A stretch of DNA of 64,000 nt, from IMG/VR virus record IMGVR_UViG_3300027756_000004. The stretch is one strand, 5' to 3'. A program made the position numbers and the translations under genes. The DNA is from a virus. The notes below the pieces were generated by a model. That model was not told the DNA's origin. It made no database searches and saw only the letters and a list, made by a program, of their open reading frames with translations. How positions within the stretch are numbered: position 1 is the stretch's first letter; every line of letters starts with the position of its first letter. This document shows positions 7,306 through 56,086 of the stretch, piece by piece.

Positions 7306-8313
7306 ATGTTTAAAAAAGCAGCCGTCTTTACTGACATACATTTTGGTCTGAAGAGCAACAGCATGATTCACAATCAAGACTGTGAAGAGTTTGTGGATTG
7401 GTTCATTGACCAGGCCAAACAAAACAATTGTGAAACTGGTATATTCTGTGGTGACTGGCATCACAATAGAAATTCGTTGAACTTGATGACCATGGATGTC
7501 TCCATCAAATGTTTGGAAAAACTGGGTAAGGCTTTTGAAAAATTTTATTTCTTTCCTGGCAATCACGATCTGTACTACAAAGACAAGCGTGATATTCACT
7601 CAGTGGAGTTTGCAAGATTTATTCCTGGCATCACAGTGATCACACAGACCACTACCATAGATGACACAACCTTAGTGCCTTGGTTGGTGGGAGATGAATA
7701 CAAACAGATCAAAAAAATCAAAAGCAGATACATGTTTGGTCATTTTGAATTGCCGCACTTCTTAATGAATGCCATGATAGAGATGCCAGACACTGGGTTG
7801 ATACAAGCAGTGGATTTTGTGCATCCAGAATATGTGTTCACAGGACACTTCCACAAGAGACAAACAGCAAGAAACATACATTACATTGGTAATCCCATGC
7901 CGCACAACTATGCAGATGTGAATGATGATCAGCGTGGTATGATGATCATGGAACATGGTGGCACTCCCAGATACATCAATTGGTACAATTGTCCAAGATA
8001 TTTGAAAGTAAATTTAAGTCAACTACTGAATGATGCAAAGAACATTATACTGCCCAAGATGCACTTGCAAGTGACGTTGGACATAGACATCAGCTATGAA
8101 GAAGCCAGTTTTATCAAAGAAACCTTTATAAAAGATTACAACTGCAGAGAAATAGTGCTGATTCCAGGCAAGAAAGATGATGAACTCACCAGTACATTGG
8201 ATATCACACGTTTTGAATCTGTGGACGAAATAGTCAGCAAAGAGATCAATGCTATTGAATCTGACAGTTATAATAAAAATACTCTATTAGAGATTTACAG
8301 AGACCTACAATGA
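7306..8313 (+). CDS. gp47: Recombination endonuclease subunit gp47 (Mre11/SbcD-like metallophosphoesterase)
   Basis: DIHFG, GDW, GNHD, GHF, GHFH phosphoesterase motifs. Confidence 0.95.
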   Translation: MFKKAAVFTDIHFGLKSNSMIHNQDCEEFVDWFIDQAKQNNCETGIFCGDWHHNRNSLNLMTMDVSIKCLEKLGKAFEKFYFFPGNHDLYYKDKRDIHSVEFARFIPGITVITQTTTIDDTTLVPWLVGDEYKQIKKIKSRYMFGHFELPHFLMNAMIEMPDTGLIQAVDFVHPEYVFTGHFHKRQTARNIHYIGNPMPHNYADVNDDQRGMMIMEHGGTPRYINWYNCPRYLKVNLSQLLNDAKNIILPKMHLQVTLDIDISYEEASFIKETFIKDYNCREIVLIPGKKDDELTSTLDITRFESVDEIVSKEINAIESDSYNKNTLLEIYRDLQ

Positions 8314-10088: not shown

Positions 10089-10096
10089 GAGCACAC

Positions 10097-10297
10097 ATGG
10101 ACGACACACATGATTTATTGACCAAGGCCTACATGAACTACTTCAAATACAATGAGAAGTTTGCCAAAAGACCCAGCCGACAGAGCAAAATACAGGCTAG
10201 AAAATGGTTGAGTGAAATACGCAAACTGGGTCGCACACGCCGAGCAGAAATTGTGCGTGAATACAAACAGCACAAAGAGAAGGCCCGCACACAGTGA
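10097..10297 (+). CDS. Small basic hypothetical protein
   Basis: 66 aa with AGGAG RBS directly after gp46; ARKWLSEIRKL..TRR.EI helix. Confidence 0.7.
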   Translation: MDDTHDLLTKAYMNYFKYNEKFAKRPSRQSKIQARKWLSEIRKLGRTRRAEIVREYKQHKEKARTQ

Positions 10298-10301
10298 GCA
10301 C

Positions 10302-10386
10302 GGCGCAGCCGCTGCGGTAGACGCTATAGTTTGTACGAAGTACAAAACTACGGCGCAAAAATTTTCTGTGCCTTTTGGTACCAAAA
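10302..10386. repeat. Cluster of short inverted repeats/palindromes
   Basis: GGC-GCA-GCC (10302-10310), TTTGTAC-GAA-GTACAAA (10330-10346, extendable to ~10322-10355), perfect palindrome TTTTGGTACCAAAA (10373-10386). Confidence 0.8.
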
Positions 10387-10461
10387 CTTTTCAATCACTG
10401 CCAAAATATCACAAAGATCCAAGACTGCTGTGAACGAATTCATCACACAGTAAGTACCTGC

Positions 10462-10896
10462 ATGACGTGGATGTATCAGGGCAAATCATTGGATGCACTG
10501 CCGGAAGGCACCGAAGGATTTGTGTATCTCATCACTAATTTGGTATCTGGTCGCATGTATGTGGGCAAAAAGTTGGCCCAGTTCAAAAAATCACGTCCAC
10601 CACTCAAAGGCAAAATCAACCGACGCAGAAGCCGGGTGGAATCAGATTGGCGAGACTATTGGGGCAGCAACGAACATCTGTTGCAGGATGTGCAACAGCA
10701 GGGTGCTGATCAATTCACCCGAGAGATACTGTACATCTGTCGCAGCAGAGGCGCCATGGCATATCTGGAAGCCCGCGAACAATTTGAACGCAAAGTGTTG
10801 GAGACTGATGCATACTACAACGGCATCATCAATGTGAGAATAGGCAGCAGCAATCTACTGAGGGAAGAAATTCAAAGGCTCAAGGCACTGACATAG
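10462..10896 (+). CDS. Free-standing GIY-YIG nuclease-family protein (single domain, 144 aa)
   Basis: GFVYLITNL...RMYVGKK (GIY-YIG), DWRDYWGS, FTREIL, LE and YYN motifs; start chosen at ATG 10462, 5 nt after a TAAGTA late-promoter variant. Confidence 0.85.
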   Translation: MTWMYQGKSLDALPEGTEGFVYLITNLVSGRMYVGKKLAQFKKSRPPLKGKINRRRSRVESDWRDYWGSNEHLLQDVQQQGADQFTREILYICRSRGAMAYLEAREQFERKVLETDAYYNGIINVRIGSSNLLREEIQRLKALT

Positions 10897-11258
10897 CAAC
10901 CACACTGATCTGAAGATCCAGGAAATACGTCTCTCAAAGATGGTGAATCCTGAGTTGCACAATGAGGCAAAAACGATGGTGCTCTGTGAAACAGACACAA
11001 CACCCATATTGAGGAATTGCTTGAACAGTTCCCACAATATTCCGTAGCAATGAAGTCAGCCAAGAGGGGTATAGGGCTACCGCCCCGCAGTAGCAATGGC
11101 TGTTCAAGATGGCGTGCTCATCTCGTATGACGTCACCACTTCTCCCCGTTCTGGGAGAAGTATGGATCCACTATCTGTATGAGCGAGCAGTTGCTTCGCA
11201 ACTTGATAGAGCTACACAGTGAGAGCGCAGCGATCACTTGGACGAACTGGTTCGTCCA
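10897..11258 (+). ncRNA. Candidate structured non-coding RNA or origin-associated structured element (~360 nt)
   Basis: No convincing ORF. Many nested helices: CAGGA/TCCTG, TCTGT-GAA-ACAGA, ATATTG..GGAATTG/CAGTTCC..CAATAT, CAGCCA/TGGCTG, ACTTCTCCC/GGGAGAAGT, AGTTGC/GCAACT, TGGACGAAC/GTTCGTCCA; possible pseudoknot CTTGAA/TTCAAG. Strand is assumed. Confidence 0.5.
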
Positions 11259-11387
11259 CTACTTGTGTTTGGGTTCACGCTGTTTGGATTGTCTTTTTAC
11301 TAGATCTCGTTCGTCACTGTCTATGATATACCAAGCCACTCCAATGATCAACAACAGTGTGGCAATATTCAATATGTATGCAATCAT
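11259..11387 (-). CDS. Small single-pass membrane protein (42 aa)
   Basis: MIAYILNIATLLLIIGVAWYII hydrophobic stretch plus basic tail; AAAGGA RBS upstream of ATG 11387. Confidence 0.55.
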   Translation of the reverse strand: MIAYILNIATLLLIIGVAWYIIDSDERDLVKRQSKQREPKHK

Positions 11388-11407
11388 GATATAATATCCT
11401 TTGGCAG

Positions 11408-11998
11408 TTAGTGTTGCAATTGTGCCAGTGCTAGGGCAGCGTCCTGCGCTAGGTTGGGATCGAATTCGGTCACTGTGTGCCACAGATTTTCTTGCGCGGG
11501 TGCTGATCGCACCCTGTACAGATCAGTGTGTGGCCAGGATCTCACTTGCAACGCCTGCAGCACAGCATGACTGTACACATGCACACTCCGAGGCTGCATG
11601 CTCAGCAATTGATCAATGTTGGTTTGATTCAACACACTGTGATAGGTTTGAATTTCAGTGACTCTAGAATCTTCAGCAAAGTTTCTGGCAAAGTGGTCGC
11701 CGCGCAGCCACGTGGTGTTGGTGTGTATCACCACATCTTCTGCTCTCAGTCTGCAACGTATGTGAACAAATCCCAGTCGTCTCAATCTTTCTGCAGTGTG
11801 TCTGCCCACGCATTGTATTTCATAGGGCAGCAGTGCTGTGAGCGGATGTTGATAGTGTTGGATGGCAGCAATGTGTGTGATCAATAAGCATTGAGTCCCA
11901 GCAGCCACATGCGAAACTGCTTGAGTGGTGACACAAGGCAGCCACATGCTGTCGTCAGGCATGGTGTGATTCACGTTGCTTTGTGTAAACACTCTCAT
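11408..11998 (-). CDS. hemD: Uroporphyrinogen-III synthase-like (HemD fold), divergent
   Basis: HemD-like motifs in the correct order: W.PC.TT (hPhh.h), LLITH..AI (hhFTS.NAV), CVGRHTAERLRRLGF (AVG..TA..L...GF), WLRGD (hhRG.), EIQTYHSV (EhhhY.T), VHVYSHAVL (hhF.SPS.V). Start set at ATG 11998. Confidence 0.6.
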   Translation of the reverse strand: MRVFTQSNVNHTMPDDSMWLPCVTTQAVSHVAAGTQCLLITHIAAIQHYQHPLTALLPYEIQCVGRHTAERLRRLGFVHIRCRLRAEDVVIHTNTTWLRGDHFARNFAEDSRVTEIQTYHSVLNQTNIDQLLSMQPRSVHVYSHAVLQALQVRSWPHTDLYRVRSAPAQENLWHTVTEFDPNLAQDAALALAQLQH

Positions 11999-12006
11999 CG
12001 TAAGAT

Positions 12007-12013
12007 TATTTAC
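12007..12013 (-). promoter_or_regulatory. Late-promoter-like GTAAATA upstream of hemD-like gene
   Basis: TATTTAC on + strand, 8 nt before ATG 11998. Confidence 0.5.
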
Positions 12014-12069
12014 TTGCAGACTGCACACATTAAAATATATTATTTGGTTCTTGGGTGTTTGCTGGGCTG

Positions 12070-12264
12070 TTAAAAGAATGGCAAGCCGCTTTTTTTGGTG
12101 GTTTCTAAATTTTCTTTGATGATCTTGCCTATGATTTCGCGATCTTCATAGCTGATCATGAAAAGGTCATCCACGCTGAGACTGCCACGCATGTACCAGG
12201 CCATTTTGAACAAATCCATTTTGAAATTTTTGGTTTCATTCTCCATGTCCTTGACTTCTTGCAA
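12070..12264 (-). CDS. Small baseplate/tail-assembly protein; likely the -1-frameshifted C-terminal extension of the upstream gp26-like protein
   Basis: WYMRG.LS.DD.F..S.EDREII..II.EN.ETTKKSGLPFF; weak TTG start; frame stays open back through a T TTT TTC slippery site at 12300-12306. Confidence 0.7.
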   Translation of the reverse strand: MQEVKDMENETKNFKMDLFKMAWYMRGSLSVDDLFMISYEDREIIGKIIKENLETTKKSGLPFF

Positions 12265-12293
12265 AATAGTCGCTAGAGAGCTGGGTAGAATTT

Positions 12294-13160
12294 TTATGCG
12301 AAAAAATTTGACTGATCGAATGTCACGGGTACCTCAAAACTTGCAGGGGCGCCCGCTTTTATATCTTCAGCTGTGCTGGCCACTTTGATGGGTTTGATGC
12401 TGAAAGATTCTCTTTGTTTTTGCACATGAGCCATAATGGCAGCATAAAAGTTTTTTTCTGATTTAGCAATGAATTCAGTGATGTGTGTGGGATCAGTGAC
12501 CACCTCTCCATCCACGGCAATGCTGACCACACTGTCGGCCACCATGGCTATGGTGATGTCTGTGAGTTTTCTAAAGCTCTGTTGAAACATTGACAACTTG
12601 GTTTGTTCATCTATTTTGTCGTCATTGACCACATTGATTATTCTTTGTTCTTCAAAAGACTTGACAGCACCTGCAGTGAATTCTTTGTAGTTGATGGGTT
12701 TCAAAGTCACGGTCAAGGCACCTATGTTCACAGTGTCCACAAACGTTCCCATCATGAGATCATCCAAGGCCAAACGCAGATCCATGCTGTAGTCTCGTTT
12801 GATAGTGGTGTTGGGCACATTGATGTTGACATCCATGCTTTCACCATAGGTGGCAATTCTGATGGCAATCAGCACAGCATCCAAATCAATGCTGGGCATC
12901 AGCCAAGCATTCTTAATGTTGGGCACACAGCTTTGTATCACATCCACAGTGGCCTGACCATTCATCAGTGCATCCGGAGTTTTGAACAACAATTCGTCCT
13001 TGGCAGTCATGGCATACACTGGCAGTTCACCATTGGCTGGCATTTCCAATGTGCCCGCTGGATAAAACTTGCCTCTGCTGGGCAATCGCATGTAGTTTTT
13101 GACCTGTCTAAAATACTTCTGTAAAGGATTGCTGCCCTGTTTGATTTGATTTTCTACCAT
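12294..13160 (-). CDS. gp26: Baseplate hub assembly/tail assembly chaperone, gp26-like
   Basis: NPL.KYFRQ...Y.RLPS.G.FYP, ELPVY.MTAKDE..FKTPDAL.NG, IDLDAVL.AIR.ATYG motifs of the T4 gp26-like family. Confidence 0.75.
   Translation of the reverse strand: MVENQIKQGSNPLQKYFRQVKNYMRLPSRGKFYPAGTLEMPANGELPVYAMTAKDELLFKTPDALMNGQATVDVIQSCVPNIKNAWLMPSIDLDAVLIAIRIATYGESMDVNINVPNTTIKRDYSMDLRLALDDLMMGTFVDTVNIGALTVTLKPINYKEFTAGAVKSFEEQRIINVVNDDKIDEQTKLSMFQQSFRKLTDITIAMVADSVVSIAVDGEVVTDPTHITEFIAKSEKNFYAAIMAHVQKQRESFSIKPIKVASTAEDIKAGAPASFEVPVTFDQSNFFA
12300..12306 (-). other. Putative -1 ribosomal frameshift heptamer T TTT TTC
   Basis: Minus-strand ...TCA AAT TTT TTC GCA TAA; the -1 frame reads RIKILPSSLATILQEVKDMENE..., in frame with ORF 12070-12264. 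Confidence 0.65.
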
Positions 13161-13171
13161 TATTACCTCCG

Positions 13172-13179
13172 TATAAATA
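13172..13179 (+). promoter_or_regulatory. Perfect T4 late promoter TATAAATA (tape measure gene)
   Basis: Exact TATAAATA match in the intergenic region. Confidence 0.75.
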
Positions 13180-13214
13180 AGTGTGCAATTAACATATTTG
13201 TTTTAATATGTGTA

Positions 13215-13222
13215 TATTTATA
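13215..13222 (-). promoter_or_regulatory. Perfect T4 late promoter TATAAATA (gp26-like gene)
   Basis: TATTTATA on + strand; GGAGG RBS before the start at 13160. Confidence 0.75.
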
Positions 13223-13248
13223 GTCTAAATTAACTGGGTATTTAATAA

Positions 13249-15462
13249 ATGGCAAAAGTAGAACTGAGAGATGGCATTATAGAAGGTGCTGCATCAGAAG
13301 CCACACTACAACAGATTCTAGCAAAAATTGGCGCAGATGGCAAAGGCGCCAAAGAGGCCACTGCCATGGCCAAGAGCATGAATGAGGTCACCAAAAGTGC
13401 CAAAAATGCCTCCACTTCATTTGATCAGCACATCACCTATCACAAAAAATTTTCCAGCGTGATACAAGATTTTGGTATCAACATAGTCAAAGGCACAGAC
13501 AAATTTGGAGATTTCACTTCCAGTCTCACTGGCTACATGTCACAGTTTGGTTTGGGTTTTGCACTGATGGCACAAGGCATTCAACGATTGGTGGATGAAC
13601 TGGATCAGCAGATTGGGGTATTTAGAGACCTCAGCACAGTGGGTGCAGATTTTGGTGACAGTATTTTTGGCTCCAGAATGGCTGCCATTGAAGCTGGCCT
13701 AGCCTTGGATGTTTTTACAAATGCAGTGAAAAAGAATGCAGACACATTGGCCCTATTGGGTGGAAATGTGAACATGGGTGCAAAAAGATTCACTGCAGTC
13801 AGCAGGGTAGTGCAGAGAGACTTGCAACCAACCTTTTCCAAATATGGTGTCACCATGGAAGAAACCACACAGTTGTTGACAGATTATCTTGAAATACAAA
13901 CAGGATTGGGTGACGCTCAAAAGATGAGCAATGACGATCTGGTAAGAGGCACTGAAAATTATGTGAAAGAATTGGATCTGTTGGCTAGGACCACAGGCTT
14001 GTCACGCAAAGAAGCATCAGAGGCTCTTAAGTTGCAACAGCAGGACAAAGTGTTGAAGAGTTTGATGATGAGCATGACCAAAGAGCAGCAATTACGTTTG
14101 GGAGGCATGCTGGCGGGAATTGAAAAAACCAGTCCTGAGATGGCAGCTGCCATAAAAGAATTAGTGGTCACTGGCGGTGCTCCTATTTCCGATAACGCCA
14201 AAAGTTTAGCATTGATTAATCCTCGATTGTTGACCTTGGCAGCAGGTTTAAAAGATGGTTCTGTGTCCAATGCTGAGTTTGGTGCAGAAATGCGTAGAAC
14301 TGCAGAGATAGCTCAGGAACAAGGCAAGACCATGGGTCAGACCAACGCTTTGGCTACGTTGCTGGGTTCAGGACTGTTTGGTGCTGGAGCAGAAATGTCC
14401 AAATTCACAAAATTCATGGAAGGATCCGCCGAGGCCATTGAAGATCAAAGAAAAGCAGAAGAGTCTGCAGGCAAAGTGGTGACAGATTTCAGCAACCAGA
14501 TGAGAAAACTAATGAACCAGATCATAGCTGCCATATCTCCATTCCTGTATGGTATAGAATTATTCATGGCAGGAATCACCAAGGTGGTGTCTTTGCTGAA
14601 CACAGGATTTATTAAAGGGCTGATAAGTTTTGCGGCCATCATAGGAGTGGTGTTGGTGGGACTCAAAGGCCTAGCTGTCGTAGTGGCCGCTACAAAAGCT
14701 GCTTATGCATTTAGCCGCAGCGGCAACGTAATGAGCACAGGCAAACAAGCAGCAATGGGACTATATGACAAAGCCAAAGGTTTTGTGATGGGTGGGGGAT
14801 CTAAAGCACCAGCAGGTGGCGGAGGTGGCGGTGGAGGATCAAGCAGTGCCAGCAAAGTTTTAGAAGGTGTTGGCAAGGGAGGCCCTACCATAGGAGCCAG
14901 TCTCAAAAGTTTAGCTGGTGGATTGGCTGCGTTTGGTGTCAAAGGTCCTGCAATTGTGGCTGGAGCTTTTTTTCTTGGAACATCCATTGCATTAATAGGA
15001 GCAGGCATTGCAGGAGCAGCATGGCTCATGGGCACAGCATTCAGCAAATTTGCCGATGACTTGAGCAAATTCAATTCGATCGACGGGCAGAATCTGAAGA
15101 GCGTTGCATCTGGAACAATGGCTCTGAGCGCTGCCATGGCCACTTTTGGTGTGAGCGGCATTGCTGCTGGTTTTGGCAAGTTGTTTGGTGGTGGGGGTGA
15201 ATCATTAGCCAAAAATATCAATGCCACTCTGGATTCACTTGACAAAGGCAAAATAGACAGCTATACTACAGCATTGAACGGATTGAGCGAATCTTTTGCA
15301 GGATTAAACAACAACATGTCAAAAACTGTTGCCACAACTGGTAAAAATTCCAGTGACAAACTGGAAGAGTTAAATAGTACTATGAAAGCCATGCTGTCAG
15401 AACTGCAGAATCAAAAAAGATTTGTTAAACAAACTGCAGAAAACACAGAATATAATACATAA
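13249..15462 (+). CDS. Tail tape measure protein (putative)
   Basis: 737-aa Ala/Gly-rich helical protein with hydrophobic segments, adjacent to a frameshifting chaperone-like pair; GAASEATL N-terminus. Confidence 0.7.
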   Translation: MAKVELRDGIIEGAASEATLQQILAKIGADGKGAKEATAMAKSMNEVTKSAKNASTSFDQHITYHKKFSSVIQDFGINIVKGTDKFGDFTSSLTGYMSQFGLGFALMAQGIQRLVDELDQQIGVFRDLSTVGADFGDSIFGSRMAAIEAGLALDVFTNAVKKNADTLALLGGNVNMGAKRFTAVSRVVQRDLQPTFSKYGVTMEETTQLLTDYLEIQTGLGDAQKMSNDDLVRGTENYVKELDLLARTTGLSRKEASEALKLQQQDKVLKSLMMSMTKEQQLRLGGMLAGIEKTSPEMAAAIKELVVTGGAPISDNAKSLALINPRLLTLAAGLKDGSVSNAEFGAEMRRTAEIAQEQGKTMGQTNALATLLGSGLFGAGAEMSKFTKFMEGSAEAIEDQRKAEESAGKVVTDFSNQMRKLMNQIIAAISPFLYGIELFMAGITKVVSLLNTGFIKGLISFAAIIGVVLVGLKGLAVVVAATKAAYAFSRSGNVMSTGKQAAMGLYDKAKGFVMGGGSKAPAGGGGGGGGSSSASKVLEGVGKGGPTIGASLKSLAGGLAAFGVKGPAIVAGAFFLGTSIALIGAGIAGAAWLMGTAFSKFADDLSKFNSIDGQNLKSVASGTMALSAAMATFGVSGIAAGFGKLFGGGGESLAKNINATLDSLDKGKIDSYTTALNGLSESFAGLNNNMSKTVATTGKNSSDKLEELNSTMKAMLSELQNQKRFVKQTAENTEYNT

Positions 15463-17135
15463 TGAGTTGGAAAAGATATTTTAATCAGGTCAGTGACAAT
15501 GAGATCTACAGTCGCACAGGCAGACTGGCAGGACCAGCCGCCACCAACTACAGTTCTTATCTACCAGATGTGTATTCAGGATCGCCCAATAGAGTGGAGC
15601 GATATGGGCAGTACAACACCATGGACATGGATTCCGAGGTCAACGCTGCATTGGATATTCTAGCAGAATTTTGCTCACAGATCAACAAACAGAATGACAC
15701 CAACTTCAAACTAGATTTCAAACAAGCAGCCACCAACTCAGAGATCACCATTCTGAAACAATATCTACAGCAATGGTGCAAACAGAACAATTTCAACAAA
15801 AGAATTTTTAGAATATTCCGCAATGTGTTCAAATATGGAGATGCTTTCTTTATCAAAGATCCTGAAACCAAACGATGGTTCCATGTGGATCCAGCCAAAG
15901 TCACTAAAATTATTGTGAATGAATCAGAAGGCAAAAAGCCCGAACAGTATGTGATTCGTGATGTGAATTTAAATTTTAAAGATTTGATTGCTACCACTCC
16001 ATTTCAGACCACTGGCAATGTCACAGCAGGTGGCGCTGGATATTTGACAGGTGGTGTGCGAGGCATGGTAGGTCAAGCGCCTGAACAGTCTGGCTCAAGA
16101 TTTGCCACCAGTCTCAAAGAAATCGCAGTGAATGCAGATCATGTGATTCATTTGAGTTTGAGTGAAGGACTGGACAACAATTTCCCGTTTGGTAATTCAT
16201 TGTTGGAATCCATATTCAAAGTGTACAAGCAAAAAGAATTATTGGAAGACGCCATTATTATTTACAGAGTGCAGAGAGCGCCAGAGAGACGTGTGTTCTA
16301 TGTGGACGTGGGCAACATGCCCAGCCATTTGGCCATGCAATTTGTGGAAAGAGTCAAAACAGAAATACATCAGCGACGTATTCCTTCCAGCACAGGTGGT
16401 GGAACCAATGTGATAGATTCAGCCTACAATCCGTTAAGCATCAATGAAGATTTCTTCTTTCCACAAACAGCAGAAGGTCGTGGATCTAAAGTGGAAACAC
16501 TGCCTGGCGGTACCAATTTGGGCGAGATTGATGATCTAAAATATTTTACCAACAAACTGTTGCGTGGATTGCGTATTCCCAGTTCTTATCTGCCCACAGG
16601 ACCAGATGACAGCAATGCACAATACACAGATGGTAGAGTGGGCACTGCCTACATACAGGAGTTGAGATTCAACAACTATTGTGAAAGACTGCAAAATTTA
16701 GTGGCAGATGAGTTCAACAATGATTTTAAAAAATATCTTTTAGAAAAAGGTGTCAACATTGATTTGGGCATGTTTGACATCAAGTTTCAAACTCCACAAA
16801 ACTTTGCTTCATACAGACAAGCAGAATTGGACAACAACAGAATACAAACATTCAGTCAGGTGGCAGCATTGCCCTACATCAGCAACAGATATGCACTGAT
16901 GAGATTCTTGGGCATGAGTGCAGATGAATTGGCCGAAAATGAAAGACTATGGCGTGAAGAAAATGATGAAAAATTCAAAGTAAAACCCACCACATCAGCA
17001 GCTGAAATGAGAAGTGCAGGCATCACATCTGCCAACATACAACAAGATCTTGCAGCTCAAGAACCAGAGACCACTGAACCAGTAGAACCTGCGGCTGCAG
17101 GCACTGCCACTCCAGGCGAAACTCCCACCACATAA
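15462..17135 (+). CDS. gp20: Portal vertex protein gp20
   Basis: LLEDAIIIYRVQRAPERRVFYVDVGNMP, EDFFFP...GRGSKVETLPGG.NLGEIDDL.YF..KL.R.L..P motifs. Confidence 0.97.
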   Translation: MSWKRYFNQVSDNEIYSRTGRLAGPAATNYSSYLPDVYSGSPNRVERYGQYNTMDMDSEVNAALDILAEFCSQINKQNDTNFKLDFKQAATNSEITILKQYLQQWCKQNNFNKRIFRIFRNVFKYGDAFFIKDPETKRWFHVDPAKVTKIIVNESEGKKPEQYVIRDVNLNFKDLIATTPFQTTGNVTAGGAGYLTGGVRGMVGQAPEQSGSRFATSLKEIAVNADHVIHLSLSEGLDNNFPFGNSLLESIFKVYKQKELLEDAIIIYRVQRAPERRVFYVDVGNMPSHLAMQFVERVKTEIHQRRIPSSTGGGTNVIDSAYNPLSINEDFFFPQTAEGRGSKVETLPGGTNLGEIDDLKYFTNKLLRGLRIPSSYLPTGPDDSNAQYTDGRVGTAYIQELRFNNYCERLQNLVADEFNNDFKKYLLEKGVNIDLGMFDIKFQTPQNFASYRQAELDNNRIQTFSQVAALPYISNRYALMRFLGMSADELAENERLWREENDEKFKVKPTTSAAEMRSAGITSANIQQDLAAQEPETTEPVEPAAAGTATPGETPTT

Positions 17136-17149
17136 GCATAAATAATTTC

Positions 17150-17392
17150 ATGCTATTGCGTGAAATCTTCTATTTTGATAAAAATGATGTGAACACTGCG
17201 GATCACAAAATGTATGATCCACAGCATGATCAATCCATCATTGGTGTCACTGACACACGCAAAACACGTTTAACTTTGCAACAGATCAATCGTGCTCGCA
17301 AAGCCAGTGAATTTCACAACAATGAACAGCAAAAAGATCTAGAGTTTGTGAGAAACATGTACAGCATTGCCAGCAGTCAACCCGCAGCCTAA
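17150..17392 (+). CDS. Small head-module hypothetical protein
   Basis: 80 aa directly after portal; DTRKTRLTL.QIN..RK motif; ATAAATA (17138-17144) 5 nt before ATG. Confidence 0.7.
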   Translation: MLLREIFYFDKNDVNTADHKMYDPQHDQSIIGVTDTRKTRLTLQQINRARKASEFHNNEQQKDLEFVRNMYSIASSQPAA

Positions 17393-17408
17393 ATAAAGCA
17401 GCCGCACA

Positions 17409-18260
17409 ATGGCCAAATTAGACAAATCCCTATACACCAAAGAAGAATGGCGTGCCATGCAAGCACAACGCAATTATGACAAATCTGTGCATAGAGCAAT
17501 GAAATCTGGGCTACCCATACCGCCAATGGAGGTACAAACCGTGTCCGATTTCAAAAAGAGTAAAAAAAGTAAAATTTTAATTACAACTGCAACTACCATT
17601 GTGCCTCAGGATGAGCCGCAGGTCACTCCCGAACCCATAAGATTGCCATTGGAAGGCAACATTGCGTTTGTGCTGGGCAATGGCAGCAGTCGCAAAAACA
17701 TACCCTTGACACATCTGCGTGAATGGGGACTAATTTACGGGTGCAATGCACTCTACAGAGAATATGCACCAGACTATTTGGTGGCTGTGGATGCCAAAAT
17801 GGTCACAGAAATATGCGAAAACAATTGGCAATTGAGGTATCCTGTGTGGACCAATCCCAACAAAAACATGGAAAAATACAAAGGTCTTAACTTTTTTAAA
17901 CCCAGTCAAGGGTGGAGCAGTGGTCCCACAGCACTATGGTTGGCCACAGAACATCAGCACACCACACTTTATATACTGGGATTTGACTACATAGGCAATG
18001 AAGAAGGCAAACTAAACAACATGTATGGCGGCACCCGAAACTATCGCAAATTGTCAGATCCTGCCACGTATCACGGCAATTGGCTGCGTCAAACTGGCAT
18101 TGTAATACAGAAAAACCACAAAAAACAATATATAAGAGTAGTGCAGGATGATCGCAAAGGATTTCAAGCGGAAGAATTCCAAAGACACCACAATTATTCC
18201 GAAATGACCGTGAGCGATTTCCGCAATGCATTTTGCAGGCCTAAACCTGTGCAAAATTAG
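17409..18260 (+). CDS. DUF115/Maf-like (sialyltransferase-like Rossmann) protein
   Basis: AFVLGNGSSR, IYGCNALYR, PDYLVAVD, SSGPTAL.LA, YILGFDY motifs typical of the Maf/MptE/GT29-GT42-like fold; low-complexity N-terminal ~80 aa. Confidence 0.6.
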   Translation: MAKLDKSLYTKEEWRAMQAQRNYDKSVHRAMKSGLPIPPMEVQTVSDFKKSKKSKILITTATTIVPQDEPQVTPEPIRLPLEGNIAFVLGNGSSRKNIPLTHLREWGLIYGCNALYREYAPDYLVAVDAKMVTEICENNWQLRYPVWTNPNKNMEKYKGLNFFKPSQGWSSGPTALWLATEHQHTTLYILGFDYIGNEEGKLNNMYGGTRNYRKLSDPATYHGNWLRQTGIVIQKNHKKQYIRVVQDDRKGFQAEEFQRHHNYSEMTVSDFRNAFCRPKPVQN

Positions 18261-18354
18261 TCAAAATCGACCTATATCTGCCCACTTTTGACTAAATTTG
18301 TTAAATAAAGGTGATAGCCTTATCAAAACAACTAACCGTCAAGGAGACATAAAC

Positions 18355-19287
18355 ATGTCAGACAACACATCTAAATTCGAGCAAATGCTTGAAAAACTTA
18401 CCGCAGATGACAGAACCGGAGCTGAAGCCCTATTTCACGAAATAGTGGTTGAGAAGTCACGTTCGATCTACGAAAATTTATTAGAGACCGACCTTGCTGA
18501 TATCGCAGTGGAAGAAACTTCAACTGAAGAAACCCCTGTGGAAGAAGCAAAAAAAGACAAAGAAATGAAAAAAGCAGACAAAGAAGATTCTAAAAAAGAC
18601 AAAGAAGAAATGAAAAAAGAATCTACTGAAGAAGTTGCCGCTGAGACAACACAAGAAGTTGCTCCAGTAGCAGTGGCTCCAGTGACTGCTGAAGTTGGCG
18701 GAGATGCCACAGACGACATGATCGCTGACATCGAAGACGACAAAGATGCTGAAGACAAAGGTGACGAAAAACCTATGGCTGCAGACATGGAAGACAAAAT
18801 TGTTGATTTAGAAGATGCAGTGGAAGAACTAAAAGCTGAGTTTGAAAAATTAATGTCAAACGATGGCGACAAAGATGCTGAAGACAAAGGCGACAAAGAT
18901 GAAGCCACAGCAACAGAAGTTCAAGTTCCAGCTGAAGAAGTTACACCTGAAGTAGTAGCAACTACAGCACCAATAGCAACAGCAATTAAATCTGAAGAAC
19001 TTAGCGACAGAGAAAGAATGAGAGAATACGTGGACAAAGTGGCAGTGAAACACACTGACGGTTCGGACAACGCAAAATCTCCAACTCCTAAGCAAGCGAA
19101 AGGAATGGCGCAAGCTGTTGATTTCGTTGGTTCAGAAGAAAAAGGTAGACCAGCTCCAAAAGCGGAAATGCATGATGGTGGCAATATTAATACACCAGGC
19201 GCATCTATCAAGTTGGTAAAAGCTAAAGGACCAGAAACTGCTGACAAGTCAGACAATACAAAAAGTATTTTGGCTAACAAGAAATAA
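18355..19287 (+). CDS. Acidic prohead core/internal scaffold protein (gp67/gp68 position)
   Basis: Very Glu/Asp-rich, between portal and protease; AAGGAG RBS before ATG 18355; TAAATA at 18302-18307; internal DKDAEDKGD duplication. Confidence 0.7.
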   Translation: MSDNTSKFEQMLEKLTADDRTGAEALFHEIVVEKSRSIYENLLETDLADIAVEETSTEETPVEEAKKDKEMKKADKEDSKKDKEEMKKESTEEVAAETTQEVAPVAVAPVTAEVGGDATDDMIADIEDDKDAEDKGDEKPMAADMEDKIVDLEDAVEELKAEFEKLMSNDGDKDAEDKGDKDEATATEVQVPAEEVTPEVVATTAPIATAIKSEELSDRERMREYVDKVAVKHTDGSDNAKSPTPKQAKGMAQAVDFVGSEEKGRPAPKAEMHDGGNINTPGASIKLVKAKGPETADKSDNTKSILANKK

Positions 19288-19311
19288 AGTTAAGGACTAA
19301 TATAGTATAAG

Positions 19312-19932
19312 ATGTTTACATTACGCGAAACATTGTCATTTGACCAAGCAAGTTTGGTCATTGAGTCTGCTGAAGACAAAAACGGGGGCAAGAGCCTTTA
19401 CATGAAAGGTATCTGCATTCAAGGCGGCGTCAAAAACGCCAACCAAAGAGTGTATCCTGTTAGTGAAATCAGTAGGGCTGTCAACACACTCAACGATCAG
19501 ATCAAAGGTGGTTATTCAGTGTTGGGCGAAGTGGATCATCCAGAAGGCCTTAATGTTAATTTGGACCGTGTGAGTCACATGCTGTCAAGCATGTGGATGG
19601 ATGGCCCAAATGGACATGGCAAACTAAAAATATTACCTACGCCGATGGGACTGCTAGTTAAGACCATGCTGGAAAGCGGAGTCAAACTAGGAGTTTCATC
19701 GCGTGGTTCAGGCAACGTCAAAGAAGACGGATCCGGACAAGTGAGTGATTTTGAAATCATCACTGTGGACATAGTGGCTCAACCGTCAGCTCCGGGAGCC
19801 TATCCAACACCAATTTATGAACATCTTTTGAACACAAAAGGTGGTTATAGAGCTTTAAACATCGCAAGGGACACACAGGCACAAGAATACTTAAAGGAAC
19901 AACTGGTGAATATCATCAGTAAACTCCGTTAA
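19312..19932 (+). CDS. gp21: Prohead protease gp21
   Basis: GICIQG..KNANQRVYP, LGEVDHP, VSH, LGVSSRG.G, TVDIVAQPSAP.AY motifs. Confidence 0.95.
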   Translation: MFTLRETLSFDQASLVIESAEDKNGGKSLYMKGICIQGGVKNANQRVYPVSEISRAVNTLNDQIKGGYSVLGEVDHPEGLNVNLDRVSHMLSSMWMDGPNGHGKLKILPTPMGLLVKTMLESGVKLGVSSRGSGNVKEDGSGQVSDFEIITVDIVAQPSAPGAYPTPIYEHLLNTKGGYRALNIARDTQAQEYLKEQLVNIISKLR

Positions 19933-19952
19933 ACTAATTAGGAGAAAATATA

Positions 19953-21041
19953 ATGTTAGATGCACTGAAATCACTTTTTGAAAACAATGTAGTTTCCAAA
20001 GAGATCAGAGCCGAAATAGAAACAGCTTGGGCAGCCAAAATTGAAGAAAACAAAGTGGCAGCCACAGCAGAACTACGCGAAGAGTTCGCTAAGAAGTATG
20101 CACAAGACAAACAGCAAATGATTGACGCTGTGGACAAACTTGTTACAGAAAAATTAGCAACTGAGATTGCTGAGTTTGCAGATGATCGCAAACAATTGGC
20201 AGATCAGACAGCACAATACGCAGTGAATATGAAACAACATTCAGAATCATTGAAAAATTTTGTGTTTGAAAGACTTGCAGCGGAAATTCAAGAACTACAC
20301 GCAGATCAAAAAGTTGTGTCTGAAAATTTCAGCAGACTTGAAGAGTTTGTGGTAGAGGCTCTATCGAAAGAAATAGCAGAGTTTCATCAAGATAAACAAG
20401 ACCTAGCAGAAACCAAAGTACGTCTGATCAGAGAAGCCAAAGAGCATTTTGCTAAAGTTCGTAAGAGCTTTATTGAAAAGAGTTCTAAAGTGGTATCTGA
20501 TACAGTTAGCAAAGTTCTTACCAAAGAAATTGGCCAACTTAAAGAAGACATTGATTCTGCTCGTAAAAATGACTTTGGACGCAGATTGTTTGAGACATTT
20601 TCAGAAGAGTATGCTTCGAGCTACTTGAATGAAAAATCTGAAACATCTAAACTTCTAAAAGTGGTCAAGATTAAAGACCAACAAATAGAAGATGCGAAAA
20701 AAGCTGCACAAGATAACGCAAAATTGATTGAAGCCAAAGATGCAGAAATCAAATCAGCGAAAGATGCAGCAGAGAGATCAGCAGTTATTGGTGAGCTTAC
20801 AGCTCCTCTTAACACTGAGCAAAAAGAAATAATGAAAAACTTACTGGAATCAGTTCAAACAACAAAATTAAGATCAGCGTTTGACAAGTACATGCCATCA
20901 GTAATCAACGGCGGTACTGCACCAGCGAAGAAACAGGCTTTAAAAGAAGGCACAGAAATAACAGGCGACAAAACACAAACTAACGTTAGACAGGTGTTTG
21001 ACAGCAATATATTTGCTATCAGAAGACTTGCCGGTTTATAA
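19953..21041 (+). CDS. gp22: Prohead core scaffold protein gp22
   Basis: Coiled-coil Glu/Lys-rich protein between gp21 and gp23; FGRRLFETF motif. Confidence 0.85.
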   Translation: MLDALKSLFENNVVSKEIRAEIETAWAAKIEENKVAATAELREEFAKKYAQDKQQMIDAVDKLVTEKLATEIAEFADDRKQLADQTAQYAVNMKQHSESLKNFVFERLAAEIQELHADQKVVSENFSRLEEFVVEALSKEIAEFHQDKQDLAETKVRLIREAKEHFAKVRKSFIEKSSKVVSDTVSKVLTKEIGQLKEDIDSARKNDFGRRLFETFSEEYASSYLNEKSETSKLLKVVKIKDQQIEDAKKAAQDNAKLIEAKDAEIKSAKDAAERSAVIGELTAPLNTEQKEIMKNLLESVQTTKLRSAFDKYMPSVINGGTAPAKKQALKEGTEITGDKTQTNVRQVFDSNIFAIRRLAGL

Positions 21042-21067
21042 ACAAAAACAAATAGGAGACAAATAAA

Positions 21068-22237
21068 ATGTCAGAACTAACAGAAGCACGCTGGTCAGAA
21101 ACAAAAGCAGCATTGTTAGAAGGGCTAAAAGGTAACAGAAAATCTGTTATGGATGTGACTCTTGAAAATACTAGAAAGTATATCAATGAATCAGCATCAA
21201 CTGGAGCTACTTCTGCAGGCAACGTTGCTACTCTAAACAGAGTAATTCTACCAGTAATAAGACGGGTTATGCCAACTGTTATCGCCAACGAATTAGTAGG
21301 CGTGCAGCCAATGACTGGCCCAGTGGGACAAATCCACACGTTAAGAGTAAGATACGCAGAAGCATCAAGCGGTACAACTACAACTACTGCTGGTGAAGAA
21401 GCTTTATCACCGTTCAAAATCGCAGAAGCATATTCTGGCGACAACTCATCTACTAAAGCAGGTGCTACATCAGCTTTAGAAGGTACGGCTGGTAAAAAAC
21501 TATCAATCCAAATCTTGAAGCAAACTGTAGAAGCCAAAAGCAGAAAATTGTCTGCAAACTGGACCTTCGAAGCAGCTCAAGACGCTCAAGCTCAACAAGG
21601 TATCGACATCGAAGCAGAAATCATGGCAGCATTAGCTCAAGAGATTACTGCAGAGATTGACCAGGAAATCATTGGTTCATTAAGCACGTTAGCTGGAACA
21701 GCTTTCTCAACTTATGACCAACAAGGTGTTTCTGGAACTGCAACTTTCGTCGGTGACGAACACGCAGCTCTTGCTATCTTGATCAACAGAGCAGCAAACG
21801 CGATTGCACAAAGAACAAGAAGAGGCGCTGGAAACTACGCTGTAGTATCTCCAACTGCTTTAACTATCCTTCAATCAGCTACAACTTCAGCGTTCGCAAG
21901 ATCAACTGAAGGCACATTCGAAGCACCAACTAACAACAAATTAGTAGGAACTTTGAACAGCTCAATGAAAGTATACGTTAATACCTATGCAGCTAACGAC
22001 GATGTTATAGTAGGATACAAAGGTTCATCAGAAGCTGATGCTCCTGCATTCTATTGCCCATACATTCCGTTGATGTCATCTGGTGTTGTTCTTAACCCAA
22101 CTACATTCGAACCAACTGTTTCTTTCTTAACAAGATACGGTTACGTAGAATTGTCAAACACTGCGTCATCTCTTGGTAACGCAGCTGACTACTTGGCTAA
22201 AGTGGCAATAACGACTAACAACTTGTCGTTCTCTTAA
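21068..22237 (+). CDS. gp23: Major capsid protein gp23
   Basis: LP.IRRVMP..IA.ELVGVQPMTGP.GQI, KSRKL.A.WT.EAAQD, EITAEID.EI, FYCPYIPL, TRYG motifs; strong highly-expressed codon bias. Confidence 0.97.
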   Translation: MSELTEARWSETKAALLEGLKGNRKSVMDVTLENTRKYINESASTGATSAGNVATLNRVILPVIRRVMPTVIANELVGVQPMTGPVGQIHTLRVRYAEASSGTTTTTAGEEALSPFKIAEAYSGDNSSTKAGATSALEGTAGKKLSIQILKQTVEAKSRKLSANWTFEAAQDAQAQQGIDIEAEIMAALAQEITAEIDQEIIGSLSTLAGTAFSTYDQQGVSGTATFVGDEHAALAILINRAANAIAQRTRRGAGNYAVVSPTALTILQSATTSAFARSTEGTFEAPTNNKLVGTLNSSMKVYVNTYAANDDVIVGYKGSSEADAPAFYCPYIPLMSSGVVLNPTTFEPTVSFLTRYGYVELSNTASSLGNAADYLAKVAITTNNLSFS

Positions 22238-22259
22238 TAGATCGATCAGTAACAATATT

Positions 22260-22294
22260 AAAAATGGGGGGTGTCAAAACCCCTCATTTTTTTT
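22260..22294 (+). terminator. Rho-independent terminator after major capsid gene
   Basis: AAAAATGGGGGGT-GTCAAA-ACCCCTCATTTTTTTT stem-loop with U-tract. Confidence 0.85.
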
Positions 22295-22307
22295 GACTGC
22301 AACATCA

Positions 22308-22336
22308 TTGACGCAGACCAAAATATCCTATACAAT
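22308..22336 (+). promoter_or_regulatory. sigma70-type promoter for hemB
   Basis: TTGACG (22308-22313), 17-nt spacer, TACAAT (22331-22336), immediately after the capsid terminator. Confidence 0.7.
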
Positions 22337-22353
22337 ACACTTACCAAAATATT

Positions 22354-23202
22354 ATGAGCAAAGGTAACATTGTGCAAAAGATCAGACTGATACAACCTAT
22401 ATTTGTGAATGACACAGCAGATTCTCAGACCACTGTGTTGGGCGCAGACAATGCCAATCACAGTGTGAGTGGCCTAATCACCAGAATTGAACAGGATCTA
22501 GACTTGGGTCAAAAAGATTTTTTATTGTTTGTGACCACCAAACAAAAACAAAACAACAGTGATTGGAGCATGCATGCCAAAATTATTGACACCATCAAAC
22601 AACGTTTTGCCGAACGCATTCATCTCACAGTGGATGTGTGCTTGTGTGGTGTGCGTGAAGATGGTCACTGCTGTGTGCCAGATGATGCCATATTGACACA
22701 ACAACAGTTGGGCACATTGGCACAAATTTGTGTGACAGCAGGAGCAGACAGTGTGGCACCCAGTGACATGCAACCTTTCACAGTGGCCACCATCAGAGCA
22801 CTGACCAACATACCCATCATGAGTTATTCCACCAAGTTTCGCAGTGTGCAGTATGCTGCCTTTAGAGAAGTGGTGGACAGTGTGCCCAATTCTGCTCGTT
22901 GGTATCAATTGGATGTGGGGGATAGAGCATCAGCTATTAAGAGTTCCATGCGTTATGCTGCACAAGGTGCAGACTTGCTCATGGTAAAACCTGGCATGAG
23001 CAGCATAGATTTGATTCAACCCATCAAAGAAGCCACCAACAAACCTGTGGGTGTGTATCAGACCAGCAGTGAATGGCTGGCCATACAAGGACATGCTCAA
23101 ATGGATGCAATGCTGAAAGAAACTTGTGTGGTGTTTCAGCGTGCAGGCGCTGCATTCATGATATCATATGGTGCTAGATTGCTGCAAAAATTACTTAAAT
23201 AA
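22354..23202 (+). CDS. hemB: Delta-aminolevulinate dehydratase (porphobilinogen synthase), Zn-type
   Basis: DVCLCGVREDGHCC (C-x-C-x7-C zinc site), GADSVAPSDM, IMSYSTKF (first Schiff-base Lys), YAAFRE, YQLD, GADLLMVKPG (second Lys), VYQTSSEW, RAGA.F.ISY. Confidence 0.93.
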   Translation: MSKGNIVQKIRLIQPIFVNDTADSQTTVLGADNANHSVSGLITRIEQDLDLGQKDFLLFVTTKQKQNNSDWSMHAKIIDTIKQRFAERIHLTVDVCLCGVREDGHCCVPDDAILTQQQLGTLAQICVTAGADSVAPSDMQPFTVATIRALTNIPIMSYSTKFRSVQYAAFREVVDSVPNSARWYQLDVGDRASAIKSSMRYAAQGADLLMVKPGMSSIDLIQPIKEATNKPVGVYQTSSEWLAIQGHAQMDAMLKETCVVFQRAGAAFMISYGARLLQKLLK

Positions 23203-23488: not shown

Positions 23489-23570
23489 ATAACTGTGCTT
23501 CAAAAATAGTTTTGAAGTTTATGCGGTTTAACCCACCGCGTATAACATAGAACGTTACAGGAGAAAACAA
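23485..23570 (+). promoter_or_regulatory. Late promoter plus structured 5' leader
   Basis: ATAAATA (23485-23491); hairpins CTTCAAAA/TTTTGAAG (23498-23517) and TATGCGGT/ACCGCGTA (23520-23542); AGGAG RBS (23559-23563). Confidence 0.55.
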
Positions 23571-23957
23571 ATGGGAAGACCAATAAACAAAACAAAACTA
23601 GGCACATACACAGGTGCCATAGGTATAAGATGTGAAGCCTACATAGGTGGATCAAATCAAAGTGATGTGTTCATTGTGAAACAAGTTGGATCTAAAAGAT
23701 TCAAAGTTCAAGATACATCAGCCTCTACAACAGCAAGAGCCAAATTAGTTGCAACCACACCAGCAGCTCTAGGAGAAATGAGAGTGACTGGTTATGTTGC
23801 AGGATCTGCATCAGGCAACTTGTCCACTATGGGCGGTACTGCCAAATATGCGGCTAAAATAACTCAACGCAGATTTATTGCCAGCACTGGTGATAGATAC
23901 AAATGGACACTTGTGAACGATTCCACAAGAGATTACATTGAATTGACTGCTATATAA
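23571..23957 (+). CDS. Small virion structural protein (possible head decoration)
   Basis: 128 aa, MGRPINK N-terminus, FIVKQ.GSKRF.V motif; own late promoter, strong RBS and 3' hairpin. Confidence 0.6.
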   Translation: MGRPINKTKLGTYTGAIGIRCEAYIGGSNQSDVFIVKQVGSKRFKVQDTSASTTARAKLVATTPAALGEMRVTGYVAGSASGNLSTMGGTAKYAAKITQRRFIASTGDRYKWTLVNDSTRDYIELTAI

Positions 23958-49631: not shown

Positions 49632-49635
49632 TCAT

Positions 49636-52295: not shown

Positions 52296-52364
52296 ATCAA
52301 GAATAATTCATCCATACATATACGTTGATATATAATAACGTGTGTAAGCTCACACCATTTATAT

Positions 52365-55110: not shown

Positions 55111-55111
55111 T

Positions 55112-56062: not shown

Positions 56063-56086
56063 TACAATTTACAGGTAAATACACAC

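What the first reader, a model, noticed from the sequence alone, without database searches (positions are those of the whole stretch)
11408..23202. Dispersed phage tetrapyrrole pathway: hemB and a hemD-like gene inserted separately in the morphogenesis region
Seen: a clear porphobilinogen synthase (22354-23202) sits right after the capsid terminator. A HemD-fold ORF (11408-11998) sits downstream of the tail-chaperone genes, ~10 kb away on the other strand. Established: HemB and HemD catalyse steps 2 and 4 of the ALA to uroporphyrinogen III trunk shared by heme, siroheme, B12 and chlorophyll. The familiar phage tetrapyrrole genes act on heme catabolism/bilins (ho1, pcyA, pebS) or cobaltochelation, not on this trunk. 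Inference: the phage boosts host tetrapyrrole flux, and hemA/hemL, hemC and perhaps hemE/hemH should lie elsewhere in the genome. The two genes also appear differently timed (sigma70 promoter for hemB, late-type motif for hemD).
Basis: partly seen in the sequence, partly recalled or inferred. Interest (0 to 1): 0.8.

Follow-up and report, generated by a model that had tools for sequence, protein, structure and literature searches.

The report
Phage hemB plus short HemD-like gene
An uncultured giant freshwater phage carries two conserved genes for early steps of heme/tetrapyrrole synthesis: a stripped-down porphobilinogen synthase and a shortened uroporphyrinogen-III-synthase-like protein. This extends the known set of phage tetrapyrrole genes but does not found a new kind of system.

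Summary
Both observations hold. ORF 22354-23202 (+) is a porphobilinogen synthase (Pfam ALAD, E 8e-56). It keeps both Schiff-base lysines, the Zn cysteine triad and the substrate-binding residues, but lacks the N-terminal arm. ORF 11408-11998 (-) fails Pfam HEM4, yet it is a remote HemD homologue (hhalign 98.4%) and folds as a two-domain uroporphyrinogen-III synthase (pLDDT 90; Z 14.0 to P. aeruginosa HemD; top ten PDB matches all HemD).

The host genome is an uncultured jumbo phage of the T4 superfamily, estimated at about 360 kb. Both genes sit at the same two positions in every related contig, including one with only 82% MCP identity, and both are under purifying selection (omega 0.14-0.29).

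No hemC, hemE, hemF, alaS, hemO or hemH was found in about 170 kb of this lineage. Other viral lineages do carry alaS-hemB-hemC-hemE-hemF sets. The claim that phages do not touch the trunk is outdated: viral alaS was shown active in 2024, and hemC was noted in pelagimyophages in 2020.

What is new is the arm-less viral PBGS clade (at least 102 IMG/VR contigs) and the short HemD-like family. Activity is untested.

The parts
22354..23202 (+). hemB: arm-less, Zn-type porphobilinogen synthase (282 aa)
   Evidence: Pfam ALAD E 8e-56. PDB PBGS matches, best E 3e-31. Catalytic and binding residues are invariant in alignment A4. omega 0.14-0.22.
22266..22294 (+). Intrinsic-terminator-like hairpin (GGGGGGTGTCAAAACCCCTC) plus T8 after the major capsid gene
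   Evidence: Sequence read. Conserved with stem-preserving changes in 7 relatives. An equivalent hairpin is present in G015.
22308..22336 (+). Sigma70-like promoter match TTGACG-17-TACAAT, 17 nt before the hemB ATG
   Evidence: Scan (10 of 12 matches; the total number of such sites in the region is not above chance). TTGAC and the -10 are conserved in relatives. G015 has TTGACT-17-TATAAT at the same place.
11408..11998 (-). Short HemD-like protein (196 aa), a remote uroporphyrinogen-III synthase homologue
   Evidence: hhalign 98.4%. pLDDT 90.4. Foldseek and VIA-align top hits are all HemD, Z 14.0. omega 0.21-0.29.
12007..12012 (-). TAAATA late-type motif 14 nt before the HemD-like ATG
   Evidence: Invariant in 8 relatives including G015. 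The motif lies within 60 nt upstream of 17 of 49 genes, though it occurs only 37 times in the window on both strands.
21068..22237 (+). Context: T4 gp23-type major capsid protein directly upstream of hemB
   Evidence: Pfam Gp23 E 1.6e-99. 65-68% identical to the MCPs of jumbo phages Phosso, Vibrio 2.275.O, PA5oct and XaC1.
12294..13160 (-). Context: gp26-like baseplate hub gene upstream of the HemD-like gene on the same strand
   Evidence: Pfam T4_baseplate E 4e-10, PHROG baseplate hub.
10375..10896 (+). Context: SegE-type GIY-YIG homing endonuclease convergent with the HemD-like gene
   Evidence: Pfam SegE_GIY-YIG E 1.4e-32. Syntenic in all relatives.

Best explanation
Both genes are long-resident auxiliary metabolic genes of a lineage of uncultured jumbo T4-superfamily phages.

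HemB is most likely an active Zn-dependent porphobilinogen synthase. It has lost the N-terminal arm and several loops that cellular enzymes use for octamer assembly and allosteric control. It appears to be transcribed by host sigma70 RNA polymerase from its own promoter, right after the capsid-gene terminator, which would make it early.

The 196-aa protein is a minimised uroporphyrinogen-III synthase, expressed with the late genes. It would close hydroxymethylbilane into the physiological III isomer when flux rises.

Together with host HemC and host or viral ALA supply, the two would keep or raise ALA-to-uroporphyrinogen-III flux in the infected cell.

Shown: gene identity, fold, conservation, purifying selection and motif conservation. 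Inferred: enzyme activities, timing, and the benefit to the phage.
For: hemB identity and residues. Aligned to the solved mouse PBGS chain (2z0i), K161, K212, C96/C98/C106, R171, R182, Q185, S238 and Y272 match the catalytic, metal-binding and substrate-binding positions. All are invariant in alignment A4.

HemD homology and fold.

Viral context: T4-type portal, protease, MCP, gp5, gp53, gp26 and gp46/47 around both genes.

Conservation: identical placement in 12 IMG/VR relatives and in G005, G007 and G015. In G015 the MCP is 82% identical, but hemB is 46% and HemD-like 34%, so the acquisition is old.

Co-occurrence: both genes lie on the same contig in G005, G007, G015 and G026.

Selection: omega 0.14-0.29.

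Regulatory motifs: promoter and terminator conserved; TAAATA motif conserved and enriched upstream of genes.

Precedent: other viral lineages carry alaS (TIGR01821, 566-580 bits), hemC, hemE and hemF next to the same short hemB type. A viral AlaS has been shown active (PMC11480375).
Against: - No hemC was found in this lineage, so steps 2 and 4 stand without step 3.
- The HemD-like protein fails the Pfam and NCBIfam thresholds.
- The one widely conserved HemD tyrosine (aligned to Y119) is replaced by H or F in some family members.
- hemB scores below the NCBIfam equivalog cut-off (178 against 297 bits).
- hemB lacks the arm that cellular PBGS needs for the active octamer (from my own knowledge of PBGS; not tested here).
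- The count of sigma70-like matches in the region is not above chance (23 against 26.4 expected).
- No expression or activity data could be obtained.
Confidence: 0.6

Rival explanations
1. HemB is an active enzyme, but the HemD-like protein has kept the fold and lost U3S catalysis. It would then act as a tetrapyrrole, hydroxymethylbilane or other ligand binder, or as a regulator, for example sequestering an intermediate or sensing host tetrapyrrole status.
For: Only subthreshold HEM4 scores. About 50 residues shorter than cellular HemD. The candidate catalytic Tyr is not invariant. No hemC partner in the lineage. The lineages with full hemC/E/F clusters do without any HemD.
Against: HemD is notoriously sequence-divergent, and substrate binding is largely through backbone contacts (my own knowledge). 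The whole two-domain architecture is retained over 190 of 196 residues. The gene co-occurs with hemB across deep divergence, and with alaS and hemF in G026.
Confidence: 0.22
2. The two genes feed a phage-specific product rather than general host metabolism, for example a bilin chromophore for phycobiliprotein-like domains in the giant fibre proteins of the virion.
For: The N-terminus of the 2146-aa protein reads KCIRDVGYF...YGG and gives weak hits to C-phycocyanin alpha around Cys84 (E 0.6-0.8). An earlier follow-up of this scan (e1-5903416) reports remote homology.
Against: Pfam finds no phycobilisome domain in either giant protein. No heme oxygenase or bilin reductase was found in the window or in the lineage's contigs. 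The PDB hits are not significant.
Confidence: 0.06
3. The genes are passengers: host DNA, a misassembly, or decaying morons without function.
For: hemB and HemD-like diverge faster than the neighbouring head genes. HemD-like has the highest GC of any gene in the window, 50% against about 42%.
Against: The same positions recur in more than 15 independent contigs from different metagenomes. Frames are intact, with omega 0.14-0.29. dS of hemB equals that of hub26 and gp46-like; it is the head genes that are unusually conserved. The short PBGS forms form their own clade apart from cellular forms.
Confidence: 0.03

Closest known systems
Viral 5-aminolevulinate synthase (vAlaS) and the hemO/pcyX cassette of aquatic phages (Wegner et al. 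2024, PMC11480375)
   Same: A phage auxiliary gene in tetrapyrrole biosynthesis, found in freshwater and marine uncultured large phages. The proposed role is to keep tetrapyrrole supply going in the virocell, with apparent loss of host-type regulation. Several IMG/VR contigs here carry alaS together with the short hemB.
   Different: That paper covers step 1 and heme catabolism. hemB, hemC and hemD are not mentioned in it. No alaS, hemO or FDBR was found in this window or lineage. The activity of the genes here is untested.
Pelagimyophage heme genes (porphobilinogen deaminase, coproporphyrinogen oxidase; Zaragoza-Solas et al. 2020, PMC7029224)
   Same: Trunk and heme-branch biosynthetic genes in myophages. 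The complete 177-kb genome G025 has an overlapping hemF-hemB-hemC operon, and its hemC is 75-78% identical to Ca. Pelagibacter HemC.
   Different: A different phage lineage and host. The genes there are clustered in one operon rather than dispersed. No HemD-like gene is present. hemB was not reported in that paper.
Cellular porphobilinogen synthase (HemB/ALAD, PF00490; e.g. mouse 2Z0I, E. coli 1B4E)
   Same: TIM-barrel family match, both Schiff-base lysines, the Cys3 Zn site, and the substrate-binding Arg, Gln, Ser and Tyr.
   Different: About 40-50 residues shorter. There is no N-terminal arm, and four loop deletions are present. The SDMMDGR motif is replaced by SDMQPFT. It falls in a separate clade of short forms (SH-like support 100). 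It scores below the NCBIfam equivalog cut-off.
Cellular uroporphyrinogen-III synthase (HemD, PF02602; e.g. P. aeruginosa 4ES6)
   Same: Two-domain flavodoxin-like fold aligned over 190 residues, Z 14.0. Profile-profile homology at 98.4%.
   Different: 196 aa against 213-260. 10-17% identity. Below the Pfam gathering score. The family was seen only on metagenomic contigs, those examined being phage-like: 37 representatives among 1.84 billion proteins. None was found in 50,697 GenBank phage records.

Membership tests
Porphobilinogen synthase (ALAD, PF00490) | Family HMM above the curated cut-off | tested here: met
   Pfam 189.9 bits against 24.6. However, NCBIfam equivalog PRK09283 gives 178.2 bits against a cut-off of 297, so it is not a typical bacterial equivalog.
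Porphobilinogen synthase (ALAD, PF00490) | Two active-site lysines that form Schiff bases with the two ALA molecules | tested here: met
   K161 (SYSTKF) and K212 (MVKPG) align with the SYSAKF and MVKPG lysines of mouse PBGS. Both are invariant in A4. Their role is from my own knowledge of PBGS.
Porphobilinogen synthase (ALAD, PF00490) | Active-site metal site (Cys triad for Zn, or Asp-rich for Mg) | tested here: met
   DVCLCGVREDGHCC aligns with DVCLCPYTSHGHC. C96, C98 and C106 are invariant.
Porphobilinogen synthase (ALAD, PF00490) | N-terminal arm used for octamer assembly and allostery | tested here: not met
   The protein starts about 10 residues before the LIQPIFV strand; cellular relatives have about 30 more residues. 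No upstream extension is possible, because a terminator and promoter lie directly upstream.
Porphobilinogen synthase (ALAD, PF00490) | Catalytic activity (2 ALA to PBG) | not testable with these tools
   Needs complementation or an enzyme assay.
Uroporphyrinogen-III synthase (HEM4, PF02602) | Family HMM above the gathering score | tested here: not met
   11.8 bits against 27.5 for the window protein. 23 of 24 relatives give subthreshold hits, best E 2.9e-5. NCBIfam U3S models are also subthreshold.
Uroporphyrinogen-III synthase (HEM4, PF02602) | Homology detectable by profile-profile comparison | tested here: met
   hhalign of A2 against two Pfam-confirmed HemD sequences: 98.4% probability, E 6e-15, 128 columns. 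The only PDB hit of the profile is H. pylori HemD, E 0.16.
Uroporphyrinogen-III synthase (HEM4, PF02602) | Two alpha/beta domains joined by a two-stranded linker | tested here: met
   Model pLDDT 90.4. Z 14.0, rmsd 3.4 A, 190 residues aligned to 4ES6. The top ten matches are all HemD; the next family scores Z 6.6.
Uroporphyrinogen-III synthase (HEM4, PF02602) | Conserved active-site tyrosine (role recalled from the literature) | tested here: inconclusive
   Y119 (IQTY) aligns with the Tyr shared by both true HemD sequences and is at least 90% conserved in A1. It is H or F in some members. Residue-level mapping to solved structures was not possible.
Uroporphyrinogen-III synthase (HEM4, PF02602) | Catalytic activity (HMB to uroporphyrinogen III) | not testable with these tools
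   Needs hemD complementation or a coupled assay with isomer analysis.
Phage auxiliary metabolic gene | Encoded inside a bona fide phage genome at a conserved position, intact and under purifying selection | tested here: met
   T4-type structural genes flank both genes. Synteny holds in more than 15 contigs. omega 0.14-0.29.

The most novel reading that the evidence does not exclude
The phage makes its own tetrapyrrole supply (arm-less, unregulated HemB plus a mini-HemD) to provide a bilin chromophore for phycobiliprotein-like Cys-x-Arg-Asp domains in its giant fibre proteins. The virion would then be pigmented and possibly light-responsive.
Probability: 0.05. Interest if true: 0.9.

Novelty: new member of a known kind. 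Interest (0 to 1): 0.55.

Why it matters
Phage tetrapyrrole genes were known for heme breakdown and bilins, cobalt chelation and, since 2024, ALA synthesis. This locus and the relatives found with it show that uncultured aquatic phages also carry the middle of the pathway.

- A distinct clade of the shortest known porphobilinogen synthases occurs in at least 102 IMG/VR contigs, often next to hemC, hemE, hemF and alaS.
- A previously unannotated, apparently phage-restricted short HemD-like family is the only viral candidate for step 4.
- A natural PBGS without the N-terminal arm is a ready test of the model that the arm governs PBGS assembly and allostery.
- If both proteins are active, phages between them encode nearly every step from glycine plus succinyl-CoA to protoporphyrinogen. 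That strengthens the case that tetrapyrrole supply limits phage production in aquatic hosts.

Tried and rejected
- Megablast of 14 kb against 50,697 phage records found nothing.
- tblastn of the HemD-like protein against the same records found nothing. hemB hits there were 28-34% identical matches, mostly on short unannotated records that look like host DNA.
- The first structure prediction, from a shallow alignment, failed (pLDDT 42.6). It was repeated with a more diverse alignment.
- phmmer of a true HemD against PDB gave nothing, so catalytic residues could not be mapped onto solved structures.
- No whole genome is held for the window.
- Metagenome loci are not accepted as handles, so the 271-kb contig of the lineage could not be scanned.
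- The last large protein search, with a viral hemC, returned only Pelagibacter-type relatives. It said nothing about this lineage.
- An HMM of the HemD-like family found no divergent copies near the hemC/E/F clusters.
- Ferrochelatase is absent from all 41 viral records.
- No riboswitch was found near either gene.
- Pfam found no phycobilisome domain in the giant proteins.
- The host-contamination or misassembly reading was rejected on synteny and selection.
Full report
**What is there**

The window is a structural region of a T4-superfamily phage.
- Pfam finds a gp23-type major capsid protein (21068-22237), a gp20 portal and a gp21 protease. It also finds gp5, gp53, PAAR, a gp26-like hub, gp9/10, and gp46/47-like recombination nucleases.
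- The MCP is 65-68% identical to those of jumbo phages Phosso, Vibrio 2.275.O, PA5oct and XaC1.
- No DNA-level relative exists among 50,697 GenBank phage records.
- CheckV estimates on three related IMG/VR fragments imply a genome of about 360 kb.
- From the window offsets in earlier notes and the longest contig that holds the identical HemB, the window is probably bases 64001-128000 of a 150,790-bp contig. This is an inference.

**hemB**

ORF 22354-23202 encodes 282 aa. It matches Pfam ALAD at E 8e-56 and 24 solved PBGS sequences.
- Aligned to mouse PBGS, it keeps the Zn triad (DVCLCGVREDGHC) and both Schiff-base lysines (K161, K212).
- It also keeps the residues that in cellular enzymes bind the substrate carboxylates (R171, R182, Q185, S238, Y272). 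All are invariant in a 21-sequence alignment. The residue roles are from my own knowledge of PBGS.
- It lacks the roughly 30-residue N-terminal arm and has four further short deletions. SDMMDGR is replaced by SDMQPFT.
- It scores below NCBI's equivalog cut-off.
- In a FastTree of 119 relatives, 36 of 37 proteins shorter than 290 aa form one clade (SH-like support 100), separated from the 316-333-aa cellular forms by a long branch. The sample was chosen by similarity to the query and the tree is unrooted.

**The HemD-like gene**

ORF 11408-11998 (-) encodes 196 aa. The start is fixed by 23 homologues.
- No family passes thresholds, but HEM4 is the recurrent subthreshold hit (23 of 24 members).
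- An exhaustive profile search of 1.84 billion representatives finds only 37 relatives. They are short metagenomic proteins; two true HemD sequences appear at E about 7e-4.
- hhalign of the family against those two HemD sequences gives 98.4% probability, E 6e-15.
- With a diverse alignment, AlphaFold2 gives pLDDT 90.4.
- The 11 best Foldseek PDB matches are all uroporphyrinogen-III synthases.
- VIA-align gives Z 14.0 (rmsd 3.4 A, 190 residues) to P. aeruginosa HemD. The first non-HemD fold scores Z 6.6.
- The fold claim is therefore confirmed. Catalysis is not. The tyrosine aligned with the conserved HemD Tyr (Y119) is H or F in some members.

**Are these real phage genes?**

- In 12 IMG/VR relatives, and in G005 and G007, hemB always follows the MCP gene. 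The HemD-like gene always follows the hub gene plus a 64-aa ORF, facing a SegE-type nuclease.
- The same holds in G015, whose MCP is 82% and portal 73% identical while hemB is 46% and HemD-like 34% identical. Both genes were therefore present in an old common ancestor.
- Both genes lie on one contig in G005, G007, G015 and G026.
- Pairwise omega is 0.14-0.22 for hemB and 0.21-0.29 for HemD-like. Their dS (about 0.5) equals that of the hub and gp46-like genes. It is the head genes that are unusually conserved, at dS 0.07-0.09.
- The cultured relative Vibrio phage 2.275.O has the same portal-to-MCP block but no hemB after it.
- Neither gene has a credible match in cultured phages.

**Expression signals**

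- After the MCP stop come a hairpin plus T8 (22266-22294) and a TTGACG-17-TACAAT match (22308-22336). Both are conserved in relatives.
- G015 has TTGACT-17-TATAAT directly before its hemB.
- Upstream of the HemD-like gene, TAAATA (12012-12007) is invariant in eight relatives.
- That hexamer occurs only 37 times in the window, yet it lies within 60 nt upstream of 17 of 49 genes, mostly structural ones.
- Early hemB and late HemD-like expression is thus plausible at motif level, but untested.

**The rest of the pathway**

- No hemC, hemE, hemF, Shemin-type alaS, hemO or hemH was found in the window. None was found in G001-G009 or G015. C5-pathway hemA/hemL models were run only on the window's ORFs, through the full Pfam scan.
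- Together these cover roughly 170 kb of distinct genome, out of an estimated 360 kb. The larger contigs of the lineage could not be scanned.
- At least 102 IMG/VR contigs encode the short hemB type.
- Among 41 of the larger contigs, 14 carry hemC, 11 hemE, 16 hemF, 5 a bona fide 5-ALA synthase (TIGR01821, 566-580 bits against a cut-off of 338) and 3 hemO. These genes are often in tight clusters, such as hemF-hemC-hemE-hemB in G016.
- G025 is a complete 177-kb genome with terminal repeats. It has an overlapping hemF-hemB-hemC operon. Its hemC is 75-78% identical to Ca. Pelagibacter HemC, so it is a pelagimyophage.
- Those clustered lineages show no HemD of either type.
- G026 combines alaS, HemD-like, hemF and hemB.

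**Literature**

- Wegner et al. 2024 (PMC11480375) describe viral alaS with hemO and pcyX and show its activity. They do not mention hemB, hemC or hemD.
- Zaragoza-Solas et al. 2020 (PMC7029224) mention porphobilinogen deaminase and coproporphyrinogen oxidase in a deep pelagimyophage ecotype.
- Nine full-text searches found no description of phage hemB or hemD.

**Verdict**

- The best reading (confidence 0.6) is that these are two auxiliary metabolic genes sustaining ALA-to-uroporphyrinogen-III flux alongside host HemC. HemB would be a deregulated minimal enzyme expressed early. The HemD-like protein would be a minimal U3S expressed late.
- The main rival (0.22) is that the HemD-like protein binds a ligand rather than catalysing.
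- This is a new member of a known kind. It is of moderate interest, mainly for the arm-less PBGS clade and the unannotated viral HemD-like family.

Noticed in passing
window 23499-23573 (+): Rfam freshwater-2 RNA motif (RF02980), 57.5 bits against a gathering score of 49.9. It lies in the gap between the 106-aa and 128-aa ORFs just downstream of hemB.
   Followed up: no
L121:16324-16529 (G015, divergent relative): A manA-RNA-like element (RF01745; 47.3 bits, below the gathering score of 55.2; E 9e-11) sits between the MCP terminator and hemB. hemB there has a perfect TTGACT-17-TATAAT directly before its ATG.
   Followed up: partly
window 57290-57739 (+), N-terminus of the 2146-aa protein: The sequence SQKCIRDVGYFIDAVVHDIRYGG resembles the Cys84 bilin-attachment region of C-phycocyanin alpha. 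Three phycocyanin chains are among the four PDB hits, but at E 0.6-0.8. Pfam sees no phycobilisome domain.
   Followed up: partly
window 19953-22237 compared with 8310-13160 and 22354-23202: Against the same relatives, the scaffold and MCP genes have dS 0.07-0.09. hemB, the hub gene and the gp46-like gene have dS about 0.5. This points to a recent sweep or recombination of the head module, or to strong codon constraint.
   Followed up: no
window 52000-56100: A low-GC island (33-36% against about 42%) carries a family-9 glycosyltransferase-like gene, a carbamoyltransferase (PF16861, E 4e-58) and a paralogous 316-aa ORF. It is conserved in G008 and G015.
   Followed up: no
window 48648-51596: Three tandem paralogous genes (327, 332 and 320 aa, 42-49% identical to one another), without a Pfam match. 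They are conserved as a triplet in G008 and G015.
   Followed up: no
whole window: TAAATA occurs only 37 times on both strands. Yet it lies within 60 nt upstream of 17 of 49 genes, mostly structural ones, like a T4-type late promoter core.
   Followed up: partly
L092 (G025:55760-59368) and G025 generally: A complete 177,460-bp phage genome with terminal repeats carries an overlapping hemF-hemB-hemC operon, a 5-ALA synthase and a heme oxygenase. Its hemC is 75-78% identical to Ca. Pelagibacter HemC, while its hemB is of the short viral type.
   Followed up: partly
window 11408-11998: The HemD-like gene has the highest GC of any gene in the window (50.1%). The neighbouring genes from 10.1 to 13.2 kb have GC3 above 0.5, against about 0.3-0.4 in most structural genes.
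   Followed up: no
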